From positions 1 through 38,989 of the forward strand of contig MEDX01000032.1 of assembly GCA_001724245.1 (NCBI GenBank): a DNA stretch of 38,989 bases, given 5' to 3'. The notes below the pieces were generated by a model. The model ran no database searches. It was not told the origin of the DNA and saw only the letters and a list, made by a program, of their open reading frames with translations. A program made the translations under genes and the position numbers. The stretch comes from Fonticula-like sp. SCN 57-25 (lineage: Eukaryota). How positions within the stretch are numbered: position 1 is the stretch's first letter; every line of letters begins with the position of its first letter. Below, piece by piece: positions 3,001-33,900 of this stretch.

Positions 3001-4638
3001 GGCGCGTCGGCGAGCCAGAGTAGCCCGACTGGCAGGTGCCGGTAGCGGTCTCAAGACTGTTCGTGGTGGGGAAGGTGGCAGTGCCAGAGACCCCGCCGGC
3101 GCACGTAAGGCCTAGTAAAAATGGTTAGTCCACAAACCAGGATCAAAAGCAGAGCACGCACGAGAGCAGGGGTTGGTGACAGTTGCGGCCCAGGCGCCGT
3201 TGTTGTTGCACGCGCGAGTGGGGGTAGCACCGCTCGCGTAGCCGGTGAGGCAGGTGCCGCTCGCAGTGGTGCCGGCGTTGGCCAGCGGGAAGGAGGCCGC
3301 GCCAACGGAGCCAGAGTCGGCGGGGCACGTGATTTCTGGAAAAGCAAGCACGGTTGGAAACACGACAGAAAGCAAACCGATTGTACGTACTGACGCAGGG
3401 GCTCGAGACAGCGCCCCACACGGTGTTGGTGCACGTAGCCTTGGGCGTGCCCGTAAAGGTCGCAATGCAGGTACCGGTCGCCTGGACGCCCGTGTACGAG
3501 AACGGGAAGTTGGCGTTATCCTTGAGGATCGGCTGGCAGCTGCTCACTACAGACAATAGTTAGTTTCATATCTGCGGCAGGGTCGGATGACATACCAATG
3601 CAAGTGCCGGTAGTGCCGCTTCCGCTGTAGCCGAGGTTGCAGCTGCAGGTACCAGCGGATTCGTTGCACGAGGCGTTCACATCACACGTAATGTAGTTGA
3701 ACGACACATAAGGCCTGTACGTGGCGTACGACACTTGCGTTTCCCACACGGTCTCCAGAGTCGAGAGACGGTAGTGGACGCGCAGCGAAGTCTAAAAAAA
3801 AACAAAAGTCAGCCAAGACCGCGATGATGCAAGGGCATTCGTACCATAGAGTTGCTTTGACGAACGGCCTTGTTCAAAACGTTGGGGTTCAGGTTCAAGT
3901 ACCACCAACTGTGAAAACCAAGAGTTAGTAAAAATGAAAAAGCCCATCGCTAATTGCATACTAGTTGGTGGTGTAAGTGAAGGTCGACGCAACTGACGCG
4001 AGGCTGCTGCTGAGCGAGGGCTGGTTGTTCCAAGTGAGCGTCCAGTAGCCCCTGCGTATTTGTTTAGAAATTACAAACGAGAAAAAGTGCACACGAACCA
4101 GGTCGCGTTGGGGACGTCAACAGTCGTGCCTCCGACTCCCGTGTAGGCATTGTTCGTGCCATAGCGATTCAAATAAAGCTGAGGCGTGCCAGTTGCGCAG
4201 AAACGAGTAGGGGTAGGCTAAAGAAGCAAAGGGGAGTTGTCAATGCGAGAAACAACAAGGGCAGTAGAGGCGACACGCACAGCCACAGAGGCAAAGTTGA
4301 AGTGAATGTACGAAACAGACCTCTGGGTCGAACCAGTACCCTGGATGTAGAGGTAGGGGTAATAGCCTGAATGGAGAGAGTGAGCATCTCTTGTTGAATT
4401 CTGTACTACGGGGGCGTCGTACCGGAAACGGGGTATACGTACGTCGGCTGCCCCGAGAAGGGAGCCGCGCCATCATAGATGTAGATCTTTGTTTGACCGT
4501 GAGCTGACGTACAAAAAAATGGGAAAAAAACCACCAGAGTGAGCCAGAGTTCAAGTATAGGCAAAAATTCATTGTGCGCGCACCAGTTGAGCAGAGCAGG
4601 GCAACACAAAGTGCCACCGCGATCGCGGCACGTCCCAT
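1..4638 (-). CDS. Large secreted/cell-surface Cys-rich protein: signal peptide, DNRLRE/CBM96-like domain, EGF domain, at least 19 tandem ~55-aa HormR(HRM)/sushi-like repeats; multi-exon, 3' end outside window
   Basis: ATG at 4638 (alternative 4653) followed by hydrophobic MGRAAIAVALCVALLCSTA. Spliced N-terminal domain has SYIHFNF...QLYLNRY...WTLTWNNQP...RPYVSFNY, then EGF-like CDVNASCNESAGTCSCNLGYSGSG. Repeats follow the pattern C-x7-10-WP-x-T-x-AG-x4-G-x-C-x2-GYSGSPTR-x-C-x3-G-x-W-x5-7-C. GT-AG introns between repeats; a donor GTACGA sits at 6..1. Confidence 0.85.
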
Positions 4639-5602
4639 TCTGTGGGGAAGCATCGCCAGCGCGGGGGACTCGTTTTGAGTCTGTTTTTTTCACGACGACT
4701 TGCCATGGCGCATGACACTAACAAGCGTCGGAAGTTCCAAGTGAACATGAGCAATATGTATGCTCGGATCTTGCTCAAAATTTGCCCCGTGTGCAACATT
4801 CCTATTTAGGTAGTAATTTGTGATCGCATCGTCATGGGCCAATCGTTTTGCGAAATTCGCGTGGGGGTGGTAATCATCCGATTGGATGAATGGAATGTTG
4901 GGGAACGTGATAGGCGCAACACTCAGTCCCAGCTTGGCTCCCACGGAGTGACGTCCAGAGCGGAGGATGGTGAACATTGCGCATCGCGGGCCACTCTGCA
5001 ACCTCTCTTTGTCCATACGGCCGCCACTGTCCCAAGCTGCCATTTCGTCGCTATTTCTGTTTATTGATACGGCTTTCTCATGATCCAAAAATTTCTTCCG
5101 GATTCGCGATTCCGAGTTTCCGATGGCCTCGGCCTTTTTTTTTGAAGTCTGTATTCCGAGCTGATATCAGCACAAATGCTGGCAGAGTTGACTTTATATG
5201 CGGCATTATCACAGAGGGGTGCCGCAAGGGCCAATTGTGTGCCGGGGCCCGCGAAGAAAAGCGGCTCTTACCTCAGCTTTCTCATCTTGTTGGCCAATGG
5301 ATATCATCTGGTACCGTATCATATGATAGCATTGCTTTATCGAAGGAAGAGACACTTTTGAGCTTTAAACCAAAGGACAAACGAAAGAAAATTCGTTCAT
5401 GGCAATAACATGCCTACGGTCAGTTTAAGACGTTCCCCCCCCCGAGCCCCCGGGCCCCCGCAGCCCCATATTCCGCAAGGTCCAAATCCAATCGCACTGC
5501 CCCTCAAGTTTTTATGTGTTTTATAAGTCAATGTTGGACGGAGATTTCCGATGATGCCCCTCAAGTTACTCAAGTCGTAGGCTGCCCCTCGAGTTCAGCG
5601 AG

Positions 5603-8600
5603 ATGGCGCGCTCCATGTCCTTGATGCCTCGAATTCTGCCAGGGCCGCAACATCCACAGAACAAAGGTAATGATCTTGGCGGCCGCAACGTGCTTTTTTA
5701 ACAAAATTTTAATAGGAGCCGCTGATTGGGGCCCGCAGGGGTTTGTGGCGCATGGCTCGCATGCTCTCGTTGTCGTCACCGATTCCGCGTCCCTGCAGGT
5801 GGTACAGGTCCTGGACGGGCATGGGTCGCTCATCGTTTGCGTAAAGTGGTACGCAAATGTGGCAATTTTACGTAGCGATGCTAATATTGATCCAGGGCGC
5901 TGGATGACTCTTTCCATGATGTCTATCGTCCGTATGCCCTGACATTGGCTTCGGCCGATGCGCTGGGTCGCGTGTTTATATGGCATCTGCACAAGGCGCG
6001 TCTTTTAAATCATGTCCGCGCACATTTTCTGACTTTTCTTTTTCGTTTTAGACGCAGCCAGTGCTCCGGCTGCCGAGCGCGGGGCGCGGCGTCGTGGATC
6101 TCGCGTGGCAGCCCGGCTCCCCTGACGTGCTCGCCGTCGCCTACGCCCCCGGGATGCTGTCCCTCTTTGACGTCAAGCTGAATCAAAAGATATCCGTTCT
6201 TTCCTTTCATGTTTTATTGTTGAATTTTTGTTTTTTCTCTATTGAATTTCGTGTTTTCCTTTCTTGATCGTGCGCAATCCCCTTTTTTTTTTCCTTGACT
6301 CGCCCCTCACGTCTGGAGCCGCGAATTCTCTGGCGACGTCCTTCGCTTCCAATTCAACCCCTTTGACAGCAGCAGCGGCTTTCTCCTCACCGCGCAAGGC
6401 GTCATGTTCAACCTGACCGGGATCGGCAACACGCGATCGCAAGACATGCAGATCCGCAAGTTTCAGGTCGGCGCCGATCGCGGCGATGGCGCATCGCCCG
6501 GCCAGATCCCCGCGCCGTCAACGCCACGTAAGCGCGGCGCGCTTTCAACACCAAACGAGCTTTACCAGTCATGTGACTTTATCGCTTCTTTCTACTCGCC
6601 AAACGAGCGCGACATGATCCTGCTCGTGACGCGATCCGAGATCCTCTTTCTGGACGTCAAGGTGAGCCAGATCGTGTCGACCATTAGTGGCGAGCCACGT
6701 GGTCCGCACTTGGTTGGCGCGCTGCTTTGCCGTGAACATCCTGACTTGCTCGTCACTCTCAACGAGGCCGGAAGGTGCGCAGTTTTGCTATGAAAATCGA
6801 CCTTTTCGGCCCTTTTTGAACCATTTTTGCCCATTTTTGACCAAATTTTGACGTTTTTTGACCCATTATTAAACCTATTTTCTTTTTTCTAACACAATTT
6901 CCTTTCCATTTTCAGCATTTTAATAAGAAATCTTGGCGACCAAACCGGCCGCCGCGGCTTCTCCATCGTTGCTTCTGGTGACATTGGCCCTCGCCGCCCC
7001 GACCGTTCCTTTCAACTATTAGGAAATCCGCTTGATGACCTTGAATTCATGGCACTAGCAACAGACGGTCGCATGTACGCATACAAATATCTATTTTTAG
7101 ACTTTATACTTGATGCTATACTTGATGCTATTATGCTATACTTGATGCTATACTTGATGCTATAATTGATGCTATTATGCTATTGATGCTATTATGCTAT
7201 AATTGATGCTCAAATTGATGCTATTATGCTATACTTCAAGCTATAATTGATGCTATATTTGATGCTAATATTGATGCTTTTATGCTGTAATTGATGCTAT
7301 AATTGATGCTATATTTATGTTATTATGCTATAATTGATGCTATAATTGATACTATTATGCTATATTTGATGCTATTATGCTATTGATGCTATAATTGACG
7401 CTATTATGCTAAAATTGCTATAATTGATACTAAAAATACTTTTTTTCTAGCTATAGTTGGACACACAACTTGCCCGACCGTCTACTAGTAACTGGTTATT
7501 ATGAAGGCCTATGGTCATCCGTCACGTGCCTCTCCATGAACACCCCCCCCAAATCCACCCCAGACTCCCCCCCCCTCCTATGCGCCCTCGGCACACGCAC
7601 AGGCCACATATTCATACTAAATTTATATACTTTTTCCATTGACCGCTGCCTTGCCGCACATGATCTCCCTATTCGCGGCCTATCATGGATTGACACGTCA
7701 ACAGTTTTGTCATATGCGACGGATGAAGTCGGAACGAGGCAGTATAGGAATTCGGTTAGGATTGCTGACGTCAGCACTGGGAGGATGAGGGAGGTGAGGA
7801 GTGAGAAGAATAAGGATCAGTGGGCGATTAGGGGGGTGAGTTTGTCGTGGAGGAGGCAGTATATGGTCGTCTTATTTAAGGATGGGTACGATTATGAATA
7901 TGAATATGAATATGAGTATGTGTATGAGGGTTGTTGATGACGTTATTGATTATTGTCGTTGATGAGTATGAGTATTATTTGAATATGAGTATCATTGATG
8001 AGTATCCATATATGTGTTATTGATGAGTATTATTGATGAGTATGAGTCAGTCATTGATGAGTATGAGTATGAGTATGAGTATGAACATGAACATGAACAT
8101 GAACATGAGTATGAGTATGAGTATGAGTATGAGTATGATTATGATTATGAAATTGTGTATGAGTATGATGTGTAGTATGAGTGGTATGAGTATGAGTATG
8201 AACATGAGTATGAACATGAGTATGAGTATGAATGAGTGGATATGAACATGAGTAAGAGTATTATTGATGAGTAAGAGTATTATTGATGAGTATGACTATC
8301 ATTGATGAGTATGAGTATGAGTATCATATATGAATATGAGTAATATTGAGCATTATTATAACTATTAATAGCTCAACCTCTAACACTAACACATTCCCTC
8401 TAGTCCAATGGAACTCTGGGACATTATCACATTCACCCTCCTCAAACCCGCCTTTTCCTCCCTTTCAATCCCAACCGCCCTTTCAATCTCATTCAGCCCA
8501 ATCGCACCAATCACAGCCACGCAAACCTCACCCATATTAACCTCATTAAGACCATCTTCATCTATTCGCAAATCACGCAACCACGTGGCCTTTGATACGT

Positions 8601-11600
8601 CATCATCAATGACGTCATCATTATTAAATACGTCATCATCAATGACGTCATCAATGACGTCATCATACCATGGTTCATCCTACCATGGTTCATCATATGG
8701 TTCATCATCTTCAGTATTGTACCCAGAATCCCTTGCGATCCTATTGGCTGATGGCACCCTAGTGGGGTGTACCATAAATGGGTGTCTGGTGACAGAAGAC
8801 TATAGGCTGTCACGTGGCGGTGCTGCAGCGAGTGGTGGGGTAGAATGGGATAGGAAGGAGAGTGTGGTTGTGGGGGGGGATGGGGGGGGGAATGTGTTTT
8901 TTTATCACGTGGGGCAGTCGAGAATAAAGTACGAAGAGGGGTAATATGGGGTAATAATGGGGAAGAATAGGGAATAATAGGGAATAATAGGGAATATTGA
9001 TGCTTTTTTATGTTATTTATACGTATCTTTTTGTCTCTATTTTGTGTCAATTTTGATAGATTTTCATGATTTTGTGTCATTATAGATACTTTTTTGATAC
9101 TTTTTCAATGATGTTTTTATATCATTTTTATATCATTTTCTCTCTCTTTTCTTCTCTTTTCTTCCCTTTTCTCTCATTTTTCTCTTCTTTTTCTCCCTTT
9201 TCCACCCCCTTACTAACCCCATAATAGATCATTTTCCACCCCAAATTACGGCGAAGTTCGCAAAATCCGAAGCTCACCTTCCGGCCGTTCCTCTCACCGT
9301 TTCCTTATCCTTTTTACACGTGGCCTCGGCCTATTCGAAGGCGGCCGTTTCGAATGTGCCGCTTTCCTTCCATTTGCTGACTCATCAAATATGAGTACCT
9401 ATAGTGTTAATGTTTCATTGGATGAAGTGAAACAGAGTCCGAACAAGATGGGAGTTGGGGGTGGAATTGGGGGTGGAATTGGGGGTGGATTGAAAGAGAA
9501 GGAAAAGATGCAGTTTGGGTATGAGGCATTGAGTGTGGTGGATGTCGAGTGGGTTTCATTAGACAGGATTATTTGCCGTACGAGGGGAAAAATGGGTGAA
9601 AAATGGGTGGAAATGGGTGAAACATGGGCTTTTTAGGTGAAAAATATTGTTTTTTGGTGCAATTTGGTACATTTTGGTGCATTTTTGGTGAAAATTGGTT
9701 CATTTTTGATGTATTTTGACTATTTTGTTGTTGACAACTGTGATCATTTTATGACCATTTTGATGTCATTTGTCTCATTATTGATACAATTTTGATGCAA
9801 TTTGTCTCATTTTTACACACTTTTCATATCATTTTCACACCACTTTATCTTCATTTTCATATCATTTTCCCTATTAACTCTTCTCTTTTCCTATTACTTT
9901 CCTTATTACTTTCCTAGTAATGGGTGATGGAAGTGTTCGCCTTATGGACAGCGACCTTCGCCGCGCCGTTTCGCCCCTTCTTTCCTATCCAACCAATCGC
10001 CGCGTCCAATCACTTTCCCTCCTTCCTAATAAGGACGCATTCACCCTCAAGACTCTGCTCACGTGCCAGCCATGGCGAAATGGTGAGTCACCATTATTGC
10101 CTAATAAGGCAGATTCATTGCTGTCATTGTCGTCGCTTTTCTCGGAAATTGGGGAGGAAAGTGTCCACGTGGACATTGATGTTGATATGGCGGAAGGTGA
10201 GGAAGGAAAAGCACAACATGGCGCCAATAATGAGGTACGACTATGGATAAAAATCTAAAAATAGTATTTTTGGATCCAACTGACATGGATTAAAAGGACC
10301 ACTTGTCATCATTACTTATGTTTGCTGGACGTCACGTGCCGCCACGTCATCTTGCCTTATTGAGCGCCCCCATAAGTGTCGCCGATCGCGCCGTCCAAAC
10401 AGCGCGCCTATTTGGTGACGTGGCAGAAGTCTCCTTTTGGCGATTGGCACTTTTCTATCTTGATTACGTCACCCAACACCCCGAAGAAATGCCACCGATC
10501 GCGCCTTCAAATGTCCACGTGGCCATACCAAATGATGACATCAGCATGGAAAATTTTTCCCTTTCGCCGCTCAAATCTCCCGCGCGATCGCGCCGCGCTT
10601 TGGCCGCCGAAGCCACGTCATCAGCAACACTCGAAACACGACGTCTGACGTCACTGATGACGTCACTCAACCCCACAAATGACGATAAAAATCACGTGAC
10701 TAATTCAACTTCACTCCCGCCATATTTTGATATGTTTCGGCCTGCAAAACAACTTCGCCCATTTCATATAAAACGTCTCGAAACGCGCGAACGCGTCTCA
10801 TTATCATATGAAAATACGCAACAATTAACAAGTACAAGTATGATGCTTGGCGAGCATGAAAATGCGATAAGATTGTTGTTGGAGACGCCGTCGAATACGG
10901 TTAATTTTAGGGGTGATGCTATGAAGGCGTGTTTGATAGCGGCGTTGTGTTCGCCAGAGACATTAGAGTCAACGGTGCGTGGGAAGTGATATAGGGAAAG
11001 TGATATAGGGAAAGTGATATAGGAAGGGAAAGTATATGTTATGGGTTGTACTGTGATGATATATAGTACATGATATGATATGATATAGTACATGATATAT
11101 GATATATTGTGGTGATAAAGTACATGTGGTATGATATAGTACATGATCCATCATATAGTGTGGTGATTTAGTACATGATACATGTGGTGATATAGTACAT
11201 GATATAGTATGATATAGCACATGATATAGTATGATGAAGTACATGATATATTGTGATATAGTGTGTTGTATTCGTATTGATCACGTCATAGATGTTCTTG
11301 TTTTATGTTCTGATTCCATCTGATTCCCTTCTGATTTTGTTTTCTCCCTTCTGATTTTCCTTATTTCCTTCTGATTTCTCCTCTTCAGGTCCGTATTGTC
11401 GCTACTCGCTTCATGTCCAACAACGATCTCGACCAAGCCATCGATCTCCTCTGCATGCTCAACCTCGGCCTCACCGCCTGCCACCTCCTCCAAGATGATC
11501 ACCGCTGGGATGATGCCGCGCTCATCGCCAACTCAATCTTGACATCATCTGATCGCGCATCTGTTTTCAAGCGATGGGCAGATGATCTGGTTGAGGGGCA

Positions 11601-12272
11601 GGAGATCATTAAGGCTATTAATGTTTATTTGAGTATGGGTGATTTCGTGAATGTGATTGGCTTGTTGAGGGCGCAGGGGTGTAGTGAGATGGCGGCGGTG
11701 TTGTGGGGGGAGTGTGAGGAGAGAGGGATTACGAAAAAGTGGGATGGTACGCATAAGGGGAAATTGAGGAAAAGGAATATATTATGAATATATTTGATAT
11801 GAATTTGATCTTATTTGATATGAATTTACTCTTTTGATATGAACATGTTTGATATGATTTTTTAATATGAACATGTTTGATATGAACATGTTTGATGTGA
11901 CTCTTTTGATATGAACATGTTTGATATGTTCTTTTGATATGAACATGTTTGATATGACTCTTTTGATATGAACATATTTGATATGATTTTTTGATATGAA
12001 CATGTTTGATATGCTTTTTTGATATGAACATGAACATGTTTGATATGAATTTGCTCTTTTTTGAACATATATATGCGTTTATCTTCCTTTCTTCTTCTTT
12101 ATTCCTTTCTAAATATGTTATAGATTCAGCGCAGTTACTTGCAAGGGATGTCTGCAATGGATATGCAGACTATTTAAGCGAGCTCGGATTGGCTCAAATC
12201 GCCGCATCTTATCGGTCACGTGCTGAAGAGATCGGTGCATCGACAATGCAGGACACGCCAAGTGACATGTAG
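5603..12272 (+). CDS. WDR11: WD repeat-containing protein 11 ortholog, 13 exons: 5603-5666, 5716-5848, 5896-5995, 6052-6189, 6311-6774, 6916-7074, 7451-7885, 8404-8928, 9228-9577, 9918-10234, 10297-10974, 11389-11746, 12124-12272
   Basis: Spliced protein begins PQNKGAADWGPQGFVAHGSHALVVVTDS...LASADALGRVFIW and ends with AIRLLLETP...DAMKACLIA...ACHLLQDDHRWDDAALIA, matching remembered WDR11 N- and C-terminal motifs. All junctions keep frame. Confidence 0.92.
6190..6310 (+). other. U12-type (minor spliceosome) AT-AC intron in WDR11
   Basis: Starts ATATCCGTT, branch site TTCCTTGAC at 6291-6299, ends CCTCAC. Removal joins KLNQK|VWSREFSGDVLRFQFNPFD in frame. Confidence 0.9.
7100..7440. repeat. Intronic degenerate minisatellite, ~8-12-bp TGATGCTATA(C/A)T / TATTATGC units
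   Basis: Visible tandem array filling WDR11 intron 7075-7450. Confidence 0.9.
7890..8345. repeat. Intronic hexamer microsatellite (ATGAGT/ATGAAC/ATGAAT)
   Basis: Tandem array in WDR11 intron 7886-8403. Confidence 0.9.
10985..11270. repeat. Intronic degenerate repeat (GTGATATAGGGAAA, then ATATAGTACATG-like units)
   Basis: Visible in WDR11 intron 10975-11388. Confidence 0.8.
11785..12070. repeat. Intronic minisatellite, TTGATATGAACATGT-like units
   Basis: Tandem array in WDR11 intron 11747-12123. Confidence 0.9.
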
Positions 12273-12769
12273 TACATTGCTGTGACACGCCTGCAGGCAC
12301 ATTTGATTCATGTTGTGTTGGTATGGGTATGTGTCTTTGGTCATATTTGGTACAGCATTGTGACAGGCATGTAGACATGTAGTCAATGTCAATGTCCTTT
12401 GTGTAGGTTGATATTCAGTACTGTAACATCTATTCAGTATTGTTGAATATGGCCACATGGCCATGGTAGTGTTCCAATGTTCTTCTATTAGCTATGCAAA
12501 TGTGTTCTTTTGTATATTTCTTCACATTCCGCATATAAAGTGAAACATAATGTAATATTCAAAGAGAAAGCACATATGGTCAATGTAATAGAAAAAAAGT
12601 ATGAAAAATGCGCGCGAAACACGCAAAGAAAAACACCCAAAAGAGACTTTTTTCGCGTCTTTCCCGCCAAACAACCCTTAAAATATCCCTAATAACTCCC
12701 TAATTCAATTGAAATTGACCAACATTTTTATTGCTATTTTTGGTATTTCTCGTCATCTCCATCATCTTC

Positions 12770-13479
12770 TTATTCGCCGTGCTTAAGGACACGGACAAAC
12801 TCGCGGTAATTAAAGTTGCCCTCCTTGTCGGGCGCGGCGCCCTTGAACATGATGTCGACCTCCTCCTGCGAGAAGCGCTCGCCCATGGTGGTGAGGTGCT
12901 CGCGCAGCTCGGCGGCGCTGATGAAGCCGGTGGTGCCCTCGTCAAAGCACTCGAACGCCTGGAGGATCTCGTGCTCGGGATCCGTGCCGCTCAGCTTGTC
13001 GCCCATGAGCGTGAGGAACATGGTAAAATTGATATCACCAGTGGCCTCGCTGAGCATCTTTTCAATAACTTCGTCGCTCGGGTTCTGGCCGAGTGACGAG
13101 AGCATGTCTTTGAGATCCTCCTTGTCAATGAAGCCATCATTATCGTGGTCAATCATGGAGAAGGCCTCCTTGAACTCGGCAATCTGCTTCTGGTCAAACA
13201 TCGCAAAGACGTTCGACGTCTGGCGCACAGCGCGCTTCTTGGCCTTTCCCTTGCGTCCAGCCTACGCAAAAGGAGCAGTGTTAACCAGGGGAGCGGGGGG
13301 ATGGCAAGACTTGGCATCGCGACCATGGAAGACCACAATCGGCGGCAAAAATAGAGAGAAAAAATGGGAAAAACACACAGGAAAAGAGAGATAATACAGA
13401 CAGGGCAACGTGCGCGCGTGCGCACGCGCACAGAGCGCAGCGAGCACACAAAAAGAGGGGAAAAAGAAGCGCGTACCAT
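12770..13479 (-). CDS. Myosin II regulatory light chain (EF-hand); exon 1 is the ATG alone (13479-13477), intron 13476-13262
   Basis: [51 protein letters not shown]...[20 protein letters not shown] matches the RLC (MYL9/MYL12/sqh) family. Junction ATG|GTACGC...TAG|GCT. Confidence 0.93.
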
Positions 13480-14543: not shown

Positions 14544-14809
14544 ATCCAAAAAGTCAAATAAGACGGCCGATAAAGGACGACGATGCCGAGAGAATGCGCC
14601 TACTCACAGAGGCGGATGGTGTCACAAGCGGATGCACGCCTATGACCTCCCCTGGATGTGGATGCCTGCGCGCTCGCCCCGCTCCCAAACAAAGAGCGAT
14701 GCAAACTGTCAGACAATCTGTCAAATTGTCTCTCGACAAACGACCTATCGTTGAAGAGCGCCATATTGCTCATCTTATCGCCAATCTAGGACTGAGACGA
14801 TTCCTGCCA

Positions 14810-20792: not shown

Positions 20793-23639
20793 TCACCTTC
20801 CCGATATGGCAAAAAGCATATTTGCCGCCGTTTGCGCGAGCGGCGTCGGCGCCATTGCCAAACTGAGCAGCAAATCCTCATAGGGCTCAATGATCTGCGC
20901 ACCAATCCGATCGCCGCAAAGCGCACCAATCGCATTCGCCGCCAATGCCGCGTGTTCAAGTGACGTAGGCACTCTTAATACCAGTGAGGCCACGTGCATG
21001 AGCAGAGGAATGGCAAAAGCAGTGCGGGAAATTATGGCGGGAAATGGGGCTGGGTAGGCGCAGAGCGCGCATAGACCAATCAGAGCGGCTTCATAGGCAC
21101 GTGAGTCGCGCGAAAAGACACTGTCGGCGACACGTGGCCATAAAAAGGCGCATAAGGTGCCCATGAGGTGCGCCACGAGGCGCTCTTTTTCGTCCAATGA
21201 GAGGCCGTCGGATATGTATGGCTTGTTTTCGTGGAGTAGAATGAGTTGTGCTAGTGATTCGATCGCGCAGACATTGACCCATGGCGAGTGCTGATTGGTG
21301 GGAGAAGATGATGTAGAAGGTGAAAAAGGGGGTGAAAAAGGGGTAGGGTCGTTTAGGGCGTCGCGGACAAGGCGCGAAAAGGGGGTTTCTATCGAGGGAT
21401 CGGCCCAATTGGATGACAAAAAGACGCGAAGCGCATCCGAAGCAGTCGTTCTTGATGACGTCATCGTGGCATTTGAAGTATCTGATGACGTAATTGATGA
21501 CGTAATTGATGACGTAATCACATTATTCAATGATGTATTTTCTTCCTTGACTTCCTTGATTGATACTGACGCACTTGAATCCCCTGCCTCCACCTTGATA
21601 CCAACCTCATTGGCCAATTTCGATGACGTGGACAATGCTGATTGGCCACGCAAAAGCTGCGCGCGAACGACCGCCGAAATGCTGACAAGGCCATTCAAAA
21701 GACCCGCGGCAAGTTCGGTGGAACGCAATCGAAGATCGCCCGCGAGCAAGCTTGATAGGTGAACGGCGGCGTCACGATGACAGGGGCGTGAACACGTGAC
21801 CTCGCGAAGCAGAAGCCAAGGAAGGACCGCGTGATTGGCCATGCGGGCGCGGTGGTGGCGGGAAAGTGCGAGGTTGCGGAGAATGAGCCAGCAGGACGAA
21901 ATTATGCCTTCAGTCGCATCGCCAAACACATCTATTGGAAGAAAAATGAGGAAGAAAACGTGTTAAAAGTGAGAAAAATGGTTGAAAAAAGCATGAAAAT
22001 GACACAAAATGACACAAAAAAGTGCACAAATTTCGATGAAATTGACCAAACAAGGCACGAAATGTCACAAATTACCATCAAATTCACCATAAAAATACGC
22101 ACCCTTTACGCCTTCCTTCTCCAATGACACCAACGGTGACATCAGCAAATACTTTGACGGCGCCCTCTCCTCACTACACCCCTCTCTCCTTCCCGCCAAA
22201 ATCTCCACGACCCCATCCAACAACGCCGGATTTCCACCAATCGGAATCTGTTCCGCCGCCGCGTCATTCGCAGACAGCACCGTCATCACATTCAGCGCCC
22301 ACGTGACATCCACAAGCAGACTCGATCGCAGGCACAAACCAACGCGCGCATAGCTCACGTGACCAAGCGACTCTGGGCGGATCGCCGACAGCGACGACGT
22401 GGTCGCGCGAACAAGAATGGAGGCCGCGTCCAATGGGATGCCGACGGAAGGTGCTGACGTCATCGCTTGGGAGAAGAGCGTGCTCAAGTTGTGTTCGGGC
22501 GCGGCGGGCGGCGCAGCAGAAGAGGAAGAAGTTGTTATAGAGGCGCCTCGGCGGCCGCCGGCGGGCGCGGCGGACGAGCGCGGCGGGGGGGCGCCCGCGG
22601 CGGCGCTCATGTACTGGCTGTACCGCGGGTGGTTCTGGCCGGGCGGGCGGCCGGGCGGGCGCGACGGCGGCTTTGGCGATTCAGTGGGCGCGCGGGAAGT
22701 GGCAGGAGAAGAGGAAGAAGTGTGCGGCAGGGGGCGCTGAGAAGGGCTCCAAAACTGCTGCTGCTGCTGAGCCTGTTGGAGTTGGTGAAGCTGCTGCTGG
22801 GAAAGCTGCTGGTGGCTCGGTAGCATTATCGTGTTCTGCTGCTGAGTTTGCTGCTGAGCTTGAGCTTGTTGCTGGAAGCGCTGCTGAAGAATTTGCTGCT
22901 GCTGAATCTGCTGCTGCTGCTGCTGTTGGGCTTGAATTTGGGGTTGTTGAGCCTGCTGCTGACGAGCTTGGAATTGTTGCTGCTGCTGGGCTTGAAGTTG
23001 CTGCTGCTGAATGCGTGCTGCTGCTTGGGCGTGCGCAAGGGCGGTGGCGTTCTGTGCTGCCGGGATCTGCGCGCCCATCCGCTTCTGCATGGCCATATAA
23101 TGCTTCTGGGCCTGGAGCTGCTGCTGCTGCTGGAGGGTTTGCTGCTGCAGCATCTGCATCTGCTCGAGAGAGAGGTGGCCAAGAGAGGGGCGCTGCGGCG
23201 GGTGGCGGGCAGCGGCGACGCCAGCGGGACGCGGCGAGGCGACACGAGGGGGGGCGATCTTTGCAGGCGCGCTGCTGCTGCTGGTGATGCCGCCAGTGAT
23301 GCCGCTGCTCGTTGGGCTGCTTGTTACAGTCATGTCTTGCCTGAGGAGCATCTCGTGCACTTGCTGCTGCAGCGCGCGCTGACGGCTCTCGACCTGCTGG
23401 AGCTGCTGCGCGGTGGATTCAGTCGCGTCGCGCGGCTGCGGCGCCGTCGTGATGGGCGCATCGGACGGGGAAGGCGGCGAAGCCGAAGATGCGGAAGAAG
23501 TGTCGGCCGTCGGCGGGGCCGATGCCGGCGCGTCTATTGAGGAGGGGTCGTTAGGCGTCTGCGTGATCGAGTCGATCCACGCTTGCTCATCGCTCGCAAA
23601 GAGCGGATCAAGGACAGGGCCTGACAACCCTTCGGTCAT
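20793..23639 (-). CDS. SWI/SNF ARID1/Swi1-like subunit (Q-rich N-terminus plus BAF250_C-like ARM region), no ARID domain seen; intron 22102-21932
   Basis: YARVGLCLRSSLLVDVTWALNVMTVLS and CWLILRNLALSRHHRARMANH resemble ARID1/Swi1 C-terminal motifs (LxSGLxxExxWAL; ILRNLS). Phase-1 GT-AG intron links the two ORFs. Confidence 0.7.
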
Positions 23640-23927: not shown

Positions 23928-23959
23928 CCACCCAGACGGGATCAGCATCAGCGCGGCAA

Positions 23960-26900
23960 ATGTCTGGAGATCACGAGGACGTCGAGGATGAGGGGATGGA
24001 GGTAGAGGAGAGCAACAAGGCCCCCACGCTCGTGCTTGACAAAAAGGCAGAGTCGTCGTTCATTCAGGCTTTCCGGGATCTTCCCGCCAAGGTCGACGAC
24101 ACGATCCGCCTCTTTGAGCGGAGCGACTTTTACACCGCGCACGACGATGACGCGCATTTTATCGCGCAGCACGTCTTCAAGACGACGACCGTCATCAAGC
24201 AGTTGGGCGGCGAAGGTTCGCGCGGTCTCGCAGGTGTCTGCATGTCGCGCATGCAGACGACATCCTTCCTCCGCGAGATGCTGCTCGAAAAGCAAAAGCG
24301 CGTCGAGGTCTACGTGATGGACCGCTCCAAGAACCGCTGGGTCGTCAAGCAGCGTGTACGCACAAACATTTTATTTTTATTGTACTTACTGTTCATTTTA
24401 CAGGGCTCGCCAGGCAATCTTCAGGCCTTTGAGGACATTTTGTTTTCGTCGGCATCGACGAGCGAGTCGGCCGCATCCCCCGTCGTCATCGCGATCAAGG
24501 TCGGCGCGCAAGCGGCCGACGGCACGCGCCCCGTCGGCGTCGCCTTTGCCGACGCCACCGCCCGCTCGATCGGCATGTCCTCTCTCACCGACACTGAAAC
24601 CTTTGCCGCCCTCGAGTCGCTCGTCGTCCAGCTTTCCGCGCGCGAGTGCCTCCTCCCCGAGGTCGCCTCTGACGATTCCGCCGACGCCTACACGCACAAA
24701 AAAGTGCTCGCTCTTCTCGACCGCTGCGGCGTCGTCGCCACCCCCACCAAGCGCTCCCTTTTCAACACCAAAAACGCCGAAGCCGACCTCTCGCGCCTCC
24801 TCCGCACGCCCGCCGCCCTCAACGTCGCCGCCCACACGCAGCAGTCGCTCGCCTGCGCCGCCGCCCTCGTGGCCTTTCTCGACCTCATGTCGGACGACGC
24901 AAACCTCGGCCGGTTTGCACTCTCTGAATTCGACGCGACCGCCTTTATGCGCCTCGACGCCTCTGCCGTCAAGGCGCTCAACATTCTGCCGCCGCCCGGC
25001 GTCCCCGCCAACAGCACAAGCTCGCTGTACGGCCTTTTCAACCGCTGCCAAATGGCGCAAGGCAGCCGCACACTTTTGCGCGTCTTGAAGCAACCTCTTG
25101 TCGACGTGGCCGCCATTGAAGCTCGCCAAGACATTGTTGAAGCCTTTTTCTCCGACGCCGAGCTCCGCACCGCCGTCCGCGACGAACACCTTCGCCGCAT
25201 CCCCGACCTTTCCCGCCTCGCCAAGCGCTTTGAGCGCCGCCGCGCGACCCTTCAAGACACTGTCCGCCTCTACCAAGCCATTGCAGTCCTCCCCGCGCTC
25301 GCCGACGCGCTTTCCCGCCACGACGGCTCGCACGCCGCCCGCCTTTCCTCCACCTACACTGCCCCAATCAAAGAGTGCGCCGAAGCCCTCGAGCGCTACC
25401 AGCAGCTCATCGAGACCACCGTCGACCTCGAGCGCGTCCGCGACCACGAATTTGTCGTCCGCGCCGAGTACGACGAAGCGCTCGCTGCCCTCGGCGAGCA
25501 GCTCGCCCAAATGCGCAAGCGCGAATTCCCGCGCATTCTCAGCAAGGCCGCCGACGACCTCGGCCTCGAAGCGCACAAAAAACTAAAGCTCGAGCACAGC
25601 GCCGTGCACGGCCACCACCTTCGCGTGGCGCGCACCGACGGGTCAAAGTTGCGCGGCAAGCCGCTCTACACTGAGCTCAGCACGCAAAAGCAGGGCGTGC
25701 TTTTTACGACGCGCGAGCTGCGCGCGGTCAGCGAGCGGTATGAAGACGTGTCACAAAAGTACGCGTCGGCGCAGGCGGACGTTGTCAAGCAGGTGATTGA
25801 TGTGTGCGCGTCGTACTGCCCGGTGATTGAGACGCTCGGGGAAGTGCTGGCGATGATGGATGTTATGGCGGCGTTTGCGGATGTGGCGGCGCACGCGCCG
25901 GCAGAGTATGTGAGACCCAAGGTGGTGGGGAAGGAGAGTGGCGAGGTGACGTTGGTGGAGGCGAGGCATCCGTGTATTGAGGCACAGGATGGTGTGGCAT
26001 TCATTCCAAACGACATTGCTTTGAGTCACGCTGGATTTGGTACGCGTTGATAATAGTTTGTTTTGGGAGGGCTGTGTTTTTTTTTGCAGCATTTGTGACA
26101 GTCTTTTCATTGATTTTTGATTGTTTTTGACTGTTTTTGACTGTTTTTCAATGACGTTACACTGTTTTCCACTGTTTTTTTGCATTTTCCCACACCTTTT
26201 CCCACCCTTTTTTCTTTTTCCCGCCACTTTTTCCTTCTTTCCCAAACCGTATTCTGACCCTTTTCCGATAGATGTTGCGCTGGTAACTGGCCCCAATATG
26301 GGCGGCAAATCCACTTTTATCCGCCAAATCGGCGTTCTCGTCCTTCTCGCCCAATGCGGCTCATTCGTTCCCGCCACTTCCGCCACAATTTCCGTCCGCG
26401 ACGCCATCCTCGCCCGCGTCGGCGCCGGCGACAGCCAGCTCCAAGGCGTCTCCACCTTCATGGCCGAAATGCTCGAAGCAGCCGCCATCCTTCGCACCGC
26501 ATCACGTGACTCGCTCGTGATCGTGGACGAGCTTGGTCGCGGCACTTCGACGTATGACGGTTTTGGCCTTGCTTGGGCCATTGCAGAACACCTCGCGAGC
26601 GCCATAAAGTGCACTGCCCTTTTCGCGACGCACTTTCACGAGCTCACAGCCATGGCAAACGAACATAGTAACGTGCAAAATTTGCACGTGACCGCGCACG
26701 CCACAGAAAAAGACATTACATTGTTGTACAAGGTGCAGCAAGGCCCGTCGGATCAGTCGTTTGGTATCCACGTGGCCAAGTTGGCGCACTTTCCGGACAC
26801 GGTTGTTGCGCTGGCCAAGCGAAAGGCGGATGAGCTGGAAGATGAAAGTGGCGGGAAAGTGAGGCGCGTTGAGGCGAGTGAGGAGGAAAGAGAGGAGGCG

Positions 26901-27041
26901 GATAGGGAAATGGAAGAGTTTTTGAAGAGGGTGGCGGCGGTGAAGAATGAAAAAGAGTTGCCGGAAAAGGTCAAAGTGTGGGGGGAGGAGCTTAGGAAGA
27001 GGAATAATCCGGTTATTCAGAGTATTTTGGCGGAATTGTAA
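23960..27041 (+). CDS. MSH2: DNA mismatch repair protein MSH2; introns 24356-24403 and 26040-26271
   Basis: [59 protein letters not shown], Walker [62 protein letters not shown]. Confidence 0.97.
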
Positions 27042-30951: not shown

Positions 30952-33900
30952 CTAGTCGAAAAAGTATAAACTTTCCCTCACTTCACTCACATCAAACTGC
31001 CCCCGCTCCGGCACCGGCGCGATCTGCAGCGGCCGCCATCCCGCCGTCCCCGAAAACCGAATCGCCTCCTGGCCCTCGCTCGACGGCCGCTGGACACCCT
31101 CAACATATGCAAGCGACGCGTCATCAATCGCCTTCTCGAAAACCACGTGGTCCTTGTAGCGCTCGAGGAATTCATTTCGAAGATTGTCCATGATTGGCTG
31201 CGAGTGCAGCGCAATAAACTGCTCGCGAATGGACTTGTTCATTTCGTCGACTGTTGCCGCGTGCGTCCAGAAAGAGTCGTGCACGCTGGCAAAGACGAGC
31301 GGCGGCGACACTTCATTGGTGCAGGCGAGCGCGGTCATGAGCATGTGCGTAGAGTCGAGCGAGTGGATAAAGTTGGGCGGGAAGGCGGATTTTTGGCGGT
31401 TGACATTGACTTGTTTTTGGTGAACTGGGTCGTCAACTTGAATGCTCTGAAGATTCGTGTAAATCTGCGAAAAGTCAGTAAAATTAGACGGAAAAACATG
31501 CAAAAGTAGAAATGAAGCAGCAAAAGTACAAGAACACGTACAAGAACAAGTACAAGAATACTATCAATACCAATACCAATACCAACAACATTACCAACAA
31601 CATTACCAACAACATTACCAACAACATTACCAACAACATTACCAACAACATTACCAACAACATTACCAACGACATTCCCAATACAAAATATTTGCCACTT
31701 TTCGCACCTGCTTCATTGACTTTTTCCTGTAAGGCTGCACGATCGGCAAGTCCAATGGCGTCGTCCACACGACGAGCGTTTCTCCCTGCTCGCGCACATC
31801 CTTCTTCGTCGCCGCCACCGAGTACTCTTCCGCGACATTCGCCGCCGGCCGCGACCGCGCAATCTCGCGCGCCGTATCCGTCAGCCAATTCTGAATTTCC
31901 CGCGCGCCGTTAAACATCGTCCCAAGCGACTGGAAAACAAGCCTTGTAAGGTAAACCGACGTCTTATATATAAGCTCTTCCGGCACGACATTTCCTTCGA
32001 CAAGGCGGTTCTCAATCTGCTGACGCGCGCCGACAAATGTCACGCCGTACACGTTGGTCATGACGGTCTGCTTGACAATCTTGCGCGACACTTTGCCCTG
32101 CATGTGCCGCGCAATGTCACGTGTCAGCGGGTCGCTCGCTTCGGCGGCGTCGCGGTCAACAAACTGGCTCACGACTGAAGCAACGGCGCTGTAAACGTCC
32201 TGGGGGATGTCCGACTTTACAAGATTGACAGATTCGGCGCCGAGACGGTCGCCGCCGAGCGCGGCATAATGCTGAAGGCCGTTGCAACTGCCGTCCTGGT
32301 GGACGGGGAGGGAAGACTGGAAGAGGAGAGGGTCGGGCGAGCGAAGGGCGGCGCCAAGTTCAAGGCAGGTGGCGAGAAGCTGCCAGGGGTCATCGCTCTT
32401 TTTCCACCAATCATTCTGTAGGGAAAAGGTTAGGAAAAAGCCAGAAAATGTGGTTAAAAGTACCAAAAGAGGGTCGTCGGCGACGGCAAAGATCTGGTCG
32501 CGCATTTCGTCCGCCTTGGCAACGCGGCCATCAAACGAAAGCCTTTTTAATGGTCAGCAAAAATAACATTAAATATTTGATTTCGTACTTGTCGTGGCCG
32601 GCGAGGTTGGCAAAGTGGACCTTGAGCCAGAAAAGTCCGCGCTCGCCGAGCGGCCTCGTCTCATTAAACGTGAGCAGACCGCGGCAAATATCCGAGCCGA
32701 GATGGTTCAGGTGCGGCGGAATCGGGTACGCGCGCCCGCGGAAATCGACCGTGTGCGGAAAGTAAATCGGCTGCGATTTAAACTGCGAATCATGGGCGTC
32801 AGAAAAACATTCTGACCAATAAAAATACGCACGGCATTGGCGATTTCGAGCTTGTAATTGACGTCGCAGCGGAGCGCGTGCAGCTCGCGGTTCTGCTTCT
32901 CGGCCTTGCGGCGCTGCACGACAACCGATCGGCGCTCAAAAGGCGTGACGTCATCACCGGTCGGCATCTCGGGCACTTCGACGTCGGTGCGCGCGGGAAT
33001 GTCGGCCACGCCGCCGCCGGCCTCCCACAACGCCGTCGCGACGTCCAGCACGCGGTCATTGACGCGCCACGCAGTGTGACCAAGCACGTCAAGCGCAGTC
33101 AGCACGCCAGTGAGGCGGCCTTTGCGCGAGGCGGCGCGCAGCAGCTTGAGCTGCTCGGGACTTTCCTTCAAGCGCAAGCACGGACCTGAAGAAATCAACA
33201 CGTTAGCAACAAAAATAAACCAATAAACATAGCATACGGTCGATGGTGAGGTAGCCACCCGTGTTGAAAGTGAGCCATGGGCGGGGCGGAACGAGCATGG
33301 GCAGCATGCGCGACGGGATAATGTCGCGTACGGATCTAATGTCTGCAAACATGCGCTCAACGTGCGGGTGCGGCTTGACGACGCCAATCTTTTTCCCGCC
33401 GACAAAAATGTATGAATGGTACCAGGCCGGCACGATGCGCTTGCTGTCCGGGTCCTTTTGCCCGCTCGGCGTGAGGTTGTGCAGCTCGAGCTTGGCGTGG
33501 TCGAGCAGGAACTGGAGCAGCACTGCGCCGACGCGGACCTTGATGGCCACGGGCCACTTTGGCTGCCACGTGCCGAGCTCGTCCTGCAGCTTTGTCTGGT
33601 ACTCGCTCGCCATCTTGCGGACCTGCATGTTGAAAATCCTGCCAGAGCCCATCATCTGCTGGAACTTTGTCTCGTCAAGGTTGAGACGCTTGCGATGCCG
33701 CCGAAGGTGCATGCTGTTGTACGCATTTTCGAGCGCCTGGCCCATGCCGGCCATCGCGCGGCTGATCTTGATCGCGCCGACAACGCCGAGGTTGTACGAC
33801 GACATGAATTCGGCAAAGAGGGCGTCGAGGATCGTGTCGGGAGGCAAGAGAAGAAGGAAGGGGCCGTAGAGCTCGCGGCCGTTGCCGGGAACTTCGTCCT

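What the first reader, a model, noticed from the sequence alone, without database searches (positions are those of the whole stretch)
7451..12123. Periodic strand-symmetric GC-skew wave locked to exon/intron structure
Seen: WDR11 exons 7451-7885, 8404-8928, 9228-9577 and 11389-11746 start strongly C-rich (CACCCCCCCCAAATCCACCC) and end strongly G-rich (TGGGGGGGGATGGGGGGGGG), including at synonymous sites. The long introns 8929-9227, 9578-9917 and 10975-11388 do the reverse (G-rich start, C-rich end), giving a period of roughly 0.7-1 kb. CACGTG/TGACGTCA clusters often sit near the C-to-G switch (7690-7775, 8580-8700). Inference: a bidirectional strand-asymmetric mutational process centred in exons (origin firing, break resection, or chromatin-phased damage and repair), strong enough to alter amino-acid content such as Gly-rich exon ends.
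Basis: partly seen in the sequence, partly recalled or inferred. Interest (0 to 1): 0.7.

Follow-up and report, generated by a model that had tools for sequence, protein, structure and literature searches.

The report
Exon-by-exon G/C skew wave
In this fungus-like microbe from a wastewater metagenome, exons next to long AT-rich introns start poor in G and end poor in C even at silent codon sites, and the introns do the reverse; this repeats, exon by exon, a skew that fungi normally show once per gene and whose cause is still unknown.

Summary
It is a WDR11 gene of 13 exons. Six exons run from C-rich to G-rich and the long introns from G-rich to C-rich.

- **Silent sites.** Fourfold sites within 200 nt of 12 long introns on both strands, in five genes: G173:C71 upstream of the donor, G45:C228 downstream of the acceptor. 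For 11 short introns there is no difference.
- **Intron length.** The effect scales with intron length (rho 0.78, n=23).
- **Base change.** It is a G-for-C swap with A and T almost unchanged.
- **Protein effect.** It shifts amino-acid use.
- **Gene ends.** It also appears at the 3' ends of MSH2 and the mitochondrial RNA polymerase gene.

The closest known case is the 5'-C/3'-G skew of fungal genes (PMC3315797). Here it restarts at each long, tandem-repeat-filled intron.

- Variants inside intronic repeat arrays show strand-symmetric rates that cannot sustain the skew.
- The CACGTG and TGACGTCA motifs are highly enriched but do not sit at the switch.

My best guess (0.4) is selection on the pre-mRNA of long introns. 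Only one 39-kb window was available, with no RNA data and no close relatives.

The parts
5603..12272 (+). WDR11-like gene, 13 exons: 5603-5666, 5716-5848, 5896-5995, 6052-6189, 6311-6774, 6916-7074, 7451-7885, 8404-8928, 9228-9577, 9918-10234, 10297-10974, 11389-11746, 12124-12272
   Evidence: The spliced model gives 1289 aa with no internal stop. Pfam WDR11 propeller and TPR domains match.
7075..7450 (+). Long intron (376 nt, GC 0.26) filled with a 12/32/44-nt tandem array. The skew inside it is weak and the short upstream exon has no G block.
7451..7700 (+). C block: G-poor first part of exon 7
   Evidence: Skew -0.18 to -0.65 in 50-nt bins. Fourfold sites in the first third read G1:C18.
7701..8350 (+). 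G block: C-poor end of exon 7 plus most of intron 7886-8403, which holds an ATGAGT-type array
   Evidence: Skew +0.39 to +1.00. Tandem repeats.
8351..8750 (+). C block: last ~53 nt of intron 7886-8403 (branch-point-like CTAAC motifs, acceptor at 8403) plus the first part of exon 8
   Evidence: Fourfold sites in the first third read G1:C16.
8751..9100 (+). G block: end of exon 8 plus the 5' part of intron 8929-9227, which has GGGG runs
   Evidence: GGG 9 vs CCC 0 in the first 100 nt of the intron
9101..9400 (+). C block: pyrimidine-rich 3' part of intron 8929-9227 (TACTAAC, acceptor at 9227) plus the start of exon 9
   Evidence: Position 3 downstream of the acceptor reads G0:C22.
9401..9750 (+). 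G block: end of exon 9 (encodes GGGIGGGIGGG) plus the 5' part of intron 9578-9917
9801..10050 (+). C block: 3' part of intron 9578-9917 plus the start of exon 10
10235..10296 (+). Short intron (62 nt), with only a weak change of skew across it
   Evidence: position 3: upstream G16:C6, downstream G9:C16
10801..11300 (+). G block: last ~175 nt of exon 11 plus most of intron 10975-11388
11301..11550 (+). C block: 3' end of intron 10975-11388 (repeated TTCTGAT) plus the start of exon 12
   Evidence: Fourfold sites in the first third read G0:C17.
11551..12050 (+). G block: end of exon 12 plus most of intron 11747-12123
25640..27041 (+). MSH2: G block 25640-26039; long intron 26040-26271; C block 26272-26711; terminal G block 26712-27041, ending at the stop codon
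   Evidence: Position-3 G:C per 40 codons reads 25:3 before the intron, 3:29 after it and 23:2 near the stop. Pfam MutS domains match.
31447..31707 (-). Long intron in the mitochondrial RNA polymerase gene, with the same G-then-C order on its own strand
   Evidence: position 3: upstream G33:C8, downstream G10:C25
29119..29330 (-). Long intron of the PH/SH3-domain gene, same pattern
21932..22102 (-). Long intron of an unnamed gene (ORFs 20793-21962 and 22065-23660), same pattern
   Evidence: position 3: upstream G30:C2, downstream G10:C23
16075..16222 (-). 148-nt intron of the BAR-domain gene. The pattern is clear inside the intron and weak in the exons.

Best explanation
This is an exon-scale form of the coding-strand C-to-G skew known from fungal genes, in an unsequenced member of the Holomycota (fungi and their unicellular relatives).

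**Architecture.** Each long (141-518 nt), AT-rich intron filled with tandem repeats sits between two blocks:
- a C-poor, G-rich block: the last 150-400 nt of the upstream exon plus the 5' part of the intron;
- a G-poor, C/U-rich block: the last 50-180 nt of the intron plus about 200 nt of the next exon.

**Proposed mechanism.** I think the blocks are kept by selection on the pre-mRNA. This organism's ordinary introns are about 50-60 nt and can be recognised across the intron. Introns that tandem repeats have stretched to hundreds of AT-rich bases need extra help. The G block supplies G runs at the donor side. The C/U block extends the branch-point and pyrimidine-tract side. Because the two blocks are broadly complementary, they can pair across the intron and bring the splice sites together.

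**Shown:** the composition, its presence at silent sites, its dependence on intron length, its absence at short introns, the G-for-C swap, and predicted folding that shortens the intron.

**Inferred:** that selection rather than mutation maintains it, that pairing or protein binding happens in the cell, and why it reaches 200-400 nt into exons and into some terminal exons.
For: 1. Silent sites: for 12 long introns, G173:C71 upstream of the donor vs G45:C228 downstream of the acceptor (p 1.9e-37). For 11 short introns, G109:C161 vs G128:C200 (p 0.74).
2. The size of the switch rises with intron length: Spearman 0.78, p 1.3e-5, n=23. Within WDR11 and the RNA polymerase gene, only the parts with long introns show it.
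3. A and T at fourfold sites stay at 17% each upstream and 19% each downstream. This is a G/C swap that keeps GC content.
4. Variants in 19 intronic tandem arrays give strand-symmetric rates. The implied equilibrium skew is -0.16 (-0.59 to +0.29) against +0.70 observed in G-block arrays, and +0.24 (-0.50 to +0.90) against -0.72 in C-block arrays.
5. First 100 nt of long introns: GGG 29, CCC 2. Last 100 nt: GGG 0, CCC 21. Intronic G runs exceed shuffles, 23 vs 13.9 +/- 2.8.
6. The predicted path between donor and branch region is 12.2 steps in native introns vs 27.5 in shuffles, and lower than the shuffle mean in 11 of 12.
7. Intergenic AT-rich islands have weaker, one-sided flank skew (mean left-minus-right about 0.24 for 8 islands vs 0.68 for 12 intronic islands; my arithmetic) and carry no tandem arrays apart from one 29-nt hit.
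8. Published precedent: complementary AC/GT repeats bridge zebrafish introns, and GGG at the start with CCC at the end of human introns is four times over-represented (PMC4691745, abstract and sections 5 and 10).
Against: 1. G and C blocks of the same intron pair no better than blocks of different introns: duplex energy -86.1 vs -82.6 kcal/mol, with cognate ranks 6,2,3,3,5,4,10,5,10,0,0,0 out of 12. So there is no co-evolved helix, only generic complementarity.
2. The blocks reach 200-400 nt into exons and change amino acids in conserved proteins. That is far more than known splicing enhancers do, and it would bury the splice sites in any long helix.
3. Strong G blocks also end the last exons of MSH2 (position 3 G37:C2 in the last 60 codons) and the RNA polymerase gene (34:8), where there is no donor site.
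4. In exons, G runs are fewer than in shuffles (32 vs 55.5). The exonic part is therefore diffuse composition, not motifs.
5. G blocks carry many cryptic donor-like sites.
6. Exceptions exist. Intron 7075-7450 (376 nt) has no upstream G block (position 3 G2:C21). The 215-nt first intron of the EF-hand gene has no wave.
7. The array test has few C sites (61) and very few G sites (20), and a consensus is not an ancestor.
8. Everything rests on one 39-kb window. Intron boundaries are inferred from reading frames and splice motifs only.
Confidence: 0.4

Rival explanations
1. Transcription-coupled mutation bias that restarts at long introns. This would be the same unexplained process that McLean and Tirosh proposed for fungal gene ends, perhaps reinforced by R-loops. 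In that version, G-rich nascent RNA hybridises, the displaced coding strand loses C, and the skew grows. C-rich stretches would behave the same way for antisense transcripts.
For: - The skew has similar strength at fourfold sites and at neighbouring intron sites and crosses the splice junction without a break.
- It reaches extreme values (position 3 G37:C2) over hundreds of bases and changes amino acids.
- The feedback idea and the R-loop link are recalled knowledge and my inference. They were not tested.
Against: - Array variants show no strand asymmetry, and their implied equilibrium skew excludes the observed one.
- No T or A gain accompanies the C or G loss, so plain deamination is out.
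- The wave is absent from the short-intron halves of the same transcripts, so transcription alone is not enough.
- Only 7 four-run G-quadruplex motifs lie in the window.
Confidence: 0.25
2. One reading: a strand-symmetric DNA-level process anchored on the AT-rich islands rather than on exons. One example is recurrent breaks or gaps in fragile tandem repeats, followed by resection and error-prone filling that enriches G on the strand whose 3' end points to the island. Another is retention of lagging-strand primers at the edges of nucleosome arrays.
For: - The pattern reads the same on both strands: 20 of 21 islands go G to C on the + strand whatever the gene orientation.
- Some intergenic islands between convergent genes also go G to C inside (20355-20823: +0.45 to -0.44).
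- The sign fits a 3'-tailed strand that loses C. The C-to-G swap resembles insertion of C opposite abasic sites (recalled, not tested).
- All 12 long introns carry tandem repeats.
Against: - Promoter-side flanks of intergenic islands show little skew (26991-27199 right flank +0.16; 30669-30996 left flank 0.00).
- Five gene ends that abut AT islands have no G block: DUF2804 19:16, gene at 37426-38784 14:12, Ulp1 17:23, EF-hand 18:35, WDR11 12:10.
- Array variants are strand-symmetric.
- Replication origins every 0.7-1.5 kb are not credible (established knowledge).
Confidence: 0.1
3. A by-product of repeat growth. Splice signals (G-rich donor context, pyrimidine tract) were copied many times by slippage, so the introns inherited their skew, and the exon part is coincidental or driven by the protein.
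For: - Each long intron is built from its own 6-63-nt units. These are C-free near the 5' end and G-free near the 3' end.
- Where arrays expanded, the G part grows with intron length, while the C part stays at 53-184 nt.
Against: - It cannot explain fourfold sites in conserved exons.
- It cannot explain terminal G blocks.
Confidence: 0.05

Closest known systems
[quoted passage not shown]
   Same: - The coding strand is C-biased first and G-biased last.
- The skew is present at fourfold sites.
- Amino-acid use shifts.
- It extends into flanking non-coding DNA.
- A and T barely change.
- The cause is unknown (their proposals: a mutational or an adaptive one).
- Their 'group four' (mostly C-biased with a short G-biased 3' end) matches MSH2 here.
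   Different: - There it is one gradient per gene, measured from start to stop codon. Here it restarts at every long AT-rich intron and is absent from several genes and from short-intron exons of the same gene.
- The amplitude here is far larger, as far as their text lets me judge; their supplementary figures were not available.
- Introns play no part in their analysis: 'intron' occurs once in their text.
Intron-bridging complementary repeats: (AC)m-(GT)n introns of zebrafish, and GGG...CCC introns of humans (Lin et al. 2016, PMC4691745; read: abstract, sections 5 and 10)
   Same: - Low-complexity, mutually complementary sequence lies at opposite ends of an intron and arose by simple repeat expansion.
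- It is predicted to bring the splice sites together.
- G triplets at the start and C triplets at the end are exactly what is seen here.
   Different: - In fish the repeats co-occur across introns and not across exons. Here the blocks run deep into exons, so each G block has a C block on both sides.
- There is no cognate specificity.
- There is no experimental support here.
Splicing-coupled strand asymmetries and G-avoidance in the pyrimidine tract (Touchon et al. 2004 and Zhang et al. 2008, seen only as cited in PMC10030826; PMC10946897, listing and start of abstract only)
   Same: Composition differs between strands at intron edges. Introns are T- and G-rich relative to exons in mammals. G is avoided upstream of the acceptor.
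   Different: Those effects are small and lie close to the splice sites. None is reported, in what I read, to flip sign in mid-exon at silent sites over hundreds of bases.
GC-skew jumps at replication origins and at bidirectional promoters (recalled; reviewed in PMC10030826)
   Same: A C-to-G sign change on the reference strand at a centre of symmetry.
   Different: The scale there is tens of kb to Mb rather than under 1 kb. The centre here is mid-exon with no sign of an origin or promoter, and the pattern depends on neighbouring intron length.
Introner-type mobile introns (recalled)
   Same: Many similar-sized introns that may be recent.
   Different: No sequence family: the all-against-all comparison of 19 introns and islands gave only 10 short (14-19 nt) low-complexity hits. 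Each intron has its own repeat unit.

Membership tests
Fungal gene-end GC skew (McLean and Tirosh) | Coding strand C-biased at the 5' side and G-biased at the 3' side | tested here: met
   Met per exon for 11 of 12 long-intron flanks on each side. Also met at the 3' ends of MSH2 and the RNA polymerase gene.
Fungal gene-end GC skew (McLean and Tirosh) | Present at fourfold-degenerate sites and continuing into non-coding flanks | tested here: met
   G173:C71 vs G45:C228 at fourfold sites. The skew continues into the introns.
Fungal gene-end GC skew (McLean and Tirosh) | Shifts amino-acid use; A and T little affected | tested here: met
   Gly, Val, Glu and Lys are enriched before donors. A and T at fourfold sites stay at 17-19%.
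Fungal gene-end GC skew (McLean and Tirosh) | One gradient per gene, from start codon to stop codon, seen as a genome-wide average | tested here: not met
   The skew restarts at each long intron. There is no C block at the 5' ends of WDR11 or MSH2. There is no terminal G block in 5 of 10 ORF ends. A genome-wide average cannot be made from one window.
Intron-bridging complementary repeats (Lin et al.) | Complementary simple sequence at opposite ends of the same intron | tested here: met
   GGG 29 / CCC 2 in the first 100 nt; GGG 0 / CCC 21 in the last 100 nt of 12 introns.
Intron-bridging complementary repeats (Lin et al.) | Predicted structure brings the intron ends together more than in shuffled controls | tested here: met
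   Path of 12.2 vs 27.5 steps, lower than the shuffle mean in 11 of 12 introns; energy -54.2 vs -48.5 (20 mononucleotide shuffles each).
Intron-bridging complementary repeats (Lin et al.) | Co-occurrence across introns but not across exons; cognate pairing | tested here: not met
   The blocks flank exons as much as introns. Cognate duplexes are no better than non-cognate ones. Exon ends are not brought closer than in shuffles.
Intron-bridging complementary repeats (Lin et al.) | The repeats are required for correct splicing | not testable with these tools
Replication-origin skew jump | A sign change at an origin, with domains of replicon size | tested here: not met
   Units are 690-1471 nt and track exon plus intron length.
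Introner / transposon-derived intron family | Introns share sequence with each other | tested here: not met
   Only 10 short low-complexity hits among 19 introns and islands.
R-loop-forming GC-skew regions | RNA-DNA hybrids over stretches with a G-rich coding strand | not testable with these tools
   The sequence has the skew. No hybrid mapping exists for this organism.

The most novel reading that the evidence does not exclude
The long-unexplained fungal 5'-C/3'-G gene skew may not be tied to the start and end of transcription. It may instead be tied to the edges of coding blocks that border long AT-rich spacers. In this lineage, where tandem repeats have stretched introns several-fold, the skew has become a strand-composition code that marks the 3' side of an exon (C-free) and its 5' side (G-free). 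It is strong enough to overrule codon preference and to push glycine, valine, glutamate and lysine toward exon ends.
Probability: 0.3. Interest if true: 0.7.

Novelty: new variant of a known kind. Interest (0 to 1): 0.6.

Why it matters
The fungal gene-end GC skew has had no accepted cause since 2011. The original authors offered RNA polymerase II phases or CTP shortage.

A genome in which the same skew restarts inside genes, only at long introns, separates 'position in the transcript' from 'neighbourhood of a long AT-rich spacer or splice site'. That makes the cause testable within single genes: WDR11 carries both kinds of exon.

If selection is the cause, it would be an unusually strong nucleotide-level constraint on coding sequence. 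Silent-site G:C flips from 0:22 to 23:3 across one exon. It would also be a new way for a small-intron organism to cope with repeat-expanded introns.

If mutation is the cause, it would be one of the sharpest local mutational asymmetries known in a nuclear genome.

In either case, gene finders and codon-usage or selection scans would be misled in such genomes.

Tried and rejected
**Tools and searches that gave nothing**
- Whole genome: none is held.
- RNA evidence: no RNA holder is listed, so splice junctions are inferred, not observed.
- Relatives: a WDR11 exon found no homologue among longer proteins. The first metagenome scan with the MSH2 protein found nothing. The second, with an alignment, gave 80 loci at 42% identity or less, which I used only as controls.
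- SNP spectrum: run X4 holds a relative about 2-3% diverged, but only 40 of 277 differences were listed and few lie in the wave, so no spectrum by block could be made.
- Rfam and tRNA scans: nothing in the window.

**Ideas tested and dropped**
- Introner family: rejected.
- Co-evolved helix across introns: rejected.
- Exon hairpins: wave exons 15.6 vs 12.9 steps in shuffles, and control coding stretches behave no worse. The measure is uninformative for GC-rich RNA.
- G-quadruplexes as the basis: only 7 motifs in 39 kb, and exonic G runs are below shuffles.
- CpG loss: CG observed/expected is about 1.0-1.2 in the exon blocks.
- Motifs at the switch: rejected.

**A correction to my own set**
- One candidate intron (30632-30981) was in the metaplot. 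I dropped it because Pfam shows the RNA polymerase gene ends at 30952.

**Literature**
- Searches listed no paper describing an exon-by-exon restart of GC skew. That covers those term sets only.
- Supplementary files of PMC3315797 (its fourfold-site figure) could not be seen.


Full report
**What the window is**

The window is nuclear DNA of a eukaryote assembled from a bioreactor/wastewater metagenome. One run holds 96% of the sampled words, and no RNA run is listed. No whole genome is held.

Its MSH2 is at most 45% identical to named proteins, and the best hits are chytrids and Mucoromycota. Its mitochondrial RNA polymerase core is at most 60% identical, with best hits in Mortierellomycota, Fonticula and Blastocladiomycota. 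It is therefore a member of the Holomycota with no sequenced close relative.

Contigs assembled independently from run X1 match the window with 0 differences over five long pieces. The sequence is not an assembly artefact, although X1 may be the source sample.

**The gene**

Using reading frames and GT-AG ends, I built a 13-exon model that translates to 1289 residues without an internal stop. It also shows that the first six exons are separated by short introns of 47-141 nt, one of them GC-AG and one AT-AC.

**The observation**

The 50-nt skew profile is a square wave. A G-rich, C-poor block begins in mid-exon, crosses the donor site and fills most of the intron. A C-rich, G-poor block begins 53-184 nt before the acceptor and fills the first half of the next exon.

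In the six wave exons, fourfold sites read G24:C116 in first halves and G77:C26 in second halves. The five upstream exons show nothing comparable (G28:C52 vs G28:C31).

**The pattern is not confined to WDR11**

I curated 12 long introns (141-518 nt): seven in WDR11, one in MSH2 and four on the minus strand in three other genes. I also curated 11 short introns of 47-121 nt.

| Fourfold sites within 200 nt | Upstream of donor (G:C) | Downstream of acceptor (G:C) | Fisher p |
|---|---|---|---|
| 12 long introns | 173:71 | 45:228 | 1.9e-37 |
| 11 short introns | 109:161 | 128:200 | 0.74 |

- The switch at codon position 3 rises with intron length (Spearman 0.78, p 1.3e-5, n=23).
- Read on its own coding strand, every long intron is G-rich first and C-rich last (12 of 12). 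This is why the wave looks the same on both strands.
- Without any annotation, 20 of 21 AT-rich islands in the window go G to C inside and 19 of 21 across their flanks. In 33 unrelated eukaryotic loci from metagenomes the figures are 52 of 99 and 54 of 99.

**Nature of the change**

- At fourfold sites, A and T stay at 17% each upstream of donors and 19% each downstream of acceptors, while G and C trade places.
- CpG is not depleted in the exon blocks.
- Amino-acid use shifts. In 600 codons before donors versus 598 after acceptors: Gly 57 vs 31, Val 52 vs 30, Glu 44 vs 21, Lys 34 vs 11. Ser, Thr, Pro and Leu go the other way.
- In MSH2, aligned with 60 homologues, the codon position 1-2 G-minus-C excess over the homologues is +0.36 just before the intron and +0.48 near the C-terminus.

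**Gene ends**

MSH2 is C-biased at position 3 through most of exon 1. It flips to G (25:7, then 25:3 per 40 codons) for about 400 nt before its 232-nt intron. It returns to C (3:29) after the intron and flips again to G (23:2, 17:1) before the stop codon.

| ORF end | Position 3 G:C in last 60 codons |
|---|---|
| MSH2 | 37:2 |
| Mitochondrial RNA polymerase | 34:8 |
| Unnamed gene, 20793-21931 | 27:8 |
| Ankyrin gene | 17:2 |
| PH/SH3 gene | 21:13 (weak) |
| DUF2804 | 19:16 |
| Gene at 37426-38784 | 14:12 |
| Ulp1 | 17:23 |
| EF-hand | 18:35 |
| WDR11 last exon (48 codons) | 12:10 |

For the unnamed gene and the ankyrin gene, the end of the ORF may be a donor site rather than the stop codon. 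The G block is therefore not strictly a donor-site feature. Most terminal exons that carry it follow a long AT-rich intron. The EF-hand gene follows a 215-nt pyrimidine-rich intron and has no wave.

**Closest known phenomenon**

McLean and Tirosh (PMC3315797) found that most unicellular fungi have a coding strand that is C-biased at the 5' end and G-biased at the 3' end. The bias is seen at fourfold sites, shifts amino acids, extends into UTRs and leaves A and T flat. They left the cause open between mutation and adaptation.

[quoted passage not shown] What is new is that the pattern restarts at each long intron, is missing from short-intron exons of the same gene, and reaches near-total exclusion of one base at silent sites. 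Searches listed no paper that reports such a restart.

**Mutation or selection**

I had no population data. X4 holds a 2-3% diverged relative, but only 40 of 277 differences were shown.

As a proxy for mutation input, I compared each copy in 19 intronic tandem arrays with its consensus. In G-block arrays, complementary changes occur at similar per-site rates:

| Change | Rate | Complementary change | Rate |
|---|---|---|---|
| A>G | 11/416 | T>C | 12/548 |
| G>A | 23/352 | C>T | 5/61 |
| A>C | 5/416 | T>G | 6/548 |
| G>C | 8/352 | C>G | 0/61 |

The equilibrium skew these rates imply is -0.16 (95% -0.59 to +0.29) against +0.70 observed. For C-block arrays it is +0.24 (-0.50 to +0.90) against -0.72.

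This argues against a point-mutation bias acting now. The caveats are few C and G sites, consensus used as ancestor, and introns only.

**Splicing-related evidence**

- The long introns carry GGG 29 times and CCC twice in their first 100 nt, and GGG 0 times and CCC 21 times in their last 100 nt.
- Intronic G runs exceed shuffles (23 vs 13.9).
- Predicted folds bring the donor and branch regions to 12.2 steps apart against 27.5 in shuffles.
- This is the architecture that Lin et al. (PMC4691745) showed to bridge zebrafish introns, and that they found enriched as GGG...CCC in human introns.

Against a specific helix:
- Cognate G and C blocks pair no better than non-cognate ones (-86.1 vs -82.6 kcal/mol).
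- Exons are not predicted to fold end-to-end.
- Exonic G runs are below chance.

**The long introns themselves**

- All 12 are built from private tandem arrays with units of 6-63 nt, many with periods of 10-12 nt.
- They share no sequence with one another.
- The intergenic AT-rich islands have no such arrays, apart from one 29-nt hit, and weaker, one-sided flank skews.

CACGTG occurs 54 times against 11.9 expected, and TGACGTCA 12 times against 0.79. In the wave exons they exceed local-composition expectation about 20-fold (10 vs 0.39; 20 vs 0.95). They are spread over all skew classes, not gathered at the switch. The translations show them in all three reading frames. They are a separate oddity.

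**Verdict**

It is a new variant of a known but unexplained fungal skew.

I favour selection on the pre-mRNA of repeat-expanded introns (0.4).

The data are one window. Intron boundaries are inferred, and the cause remains open.

Noticed in passing
window 6190-6310 (+): WDR11 intron with ATATCC at its 5' end, TCCTTGAC about 10 nt before an AC 3' end, and phase 0 on both sides. It looks like a U12-type AT-AC intron, so this organism probably keeps the minor spliceosome.
   Followed up: partly
window 5996-6051 (+): A 56-nt GC-AG intron (GCGCGT donor) is needed to keep the WDR11 frame open.
   Followed up: partly
whole window, e.g. 8582, 8811, 8906, 10166, 20235-20270: The palindrome CACGTG occurs 54 times against 11.9 expected. 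CCACGTGG occurs 11 times vs 0.8, and ATGACGT 14 vs 2.3. TGACGTCA occurs 12 vs 0.79. In WDR11 the CACGTG sites fall in all three reading frames (translations). The flanks avoid A before the motif and T after it, and favour CC two to three bases downstream. This looks like bHLH and bZIP binding sites kept at the DNA level; the function is unknown.
   Followed up: partly
long introns, e.g. 7105-7432, 7962-8342, 11061-11262, 11876-12032, 31568-31681: Every long intron is built from its own tandem array, often with periods of 10-12 nt and multiples. Intergenic AT-rich islands have none apart from one 29-nt hit. In-frame arrays of 12-33 nt also sit in exons (8597-8708, 9451-9489, 19564-19795, 28592-28674).
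   Followed up: partly
long introns, sense strand: TTGAT, which fits the branch-point pattern yURAy, occurs 58 times against 12.6 expected. Its reverse complement occurs 0 times. Most copies lie inside the arrays, so they are not independent.
   Followed up: partly
window 1-4640 (-): A secreted or membrane protein gene with Hormone receptor (HRM), Sushi and Ephrin cysteine-rich domains, GC 65-70% and only ~50-nt introns. This domain set is better known from animals and their relatives than from fungi.
   Followed up: no
whole window: The donor consensus GTACGA is over-represented (31 vs 10.6 expected). CTAG is strongly avoided (26 vs 151 expected from base composition).
   Followed up: no
window 13262-13476 (-): The EF-hand (myosin light chain-like) gene has its first intron directly after the ATG. 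The intron is 215 nt, pyrimidine-rich throughout, GC about 0.5, with no G block and no exon wave. It is an exception to the long-intron rule.
   Followed up: partly
run X4 on window 5000-24999: An aquatic metagenome from another study holds a relative about 2-3% diverged (for example 14 differences in 655 nt). A second population therefore exists for comparative work.
   Followed up: no
L063, L064, L065 (metagenome loci with a 34%-identical MSH2): These control contigs show a milder version of the same island-flank skew (left-minus-right 0.27-0.29; 11 of 11 islands positive). The phenomenon may exist in other lineages.
   Followed up: no
window 19000-20200 (+), ankyrin gene: A long uninterrupted ORF shows an internal G-to-C switch near 19600, at a CAG-rich tandem array. 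It could be the footprint of a lost intron or simply the repeat.
   Followed up: no
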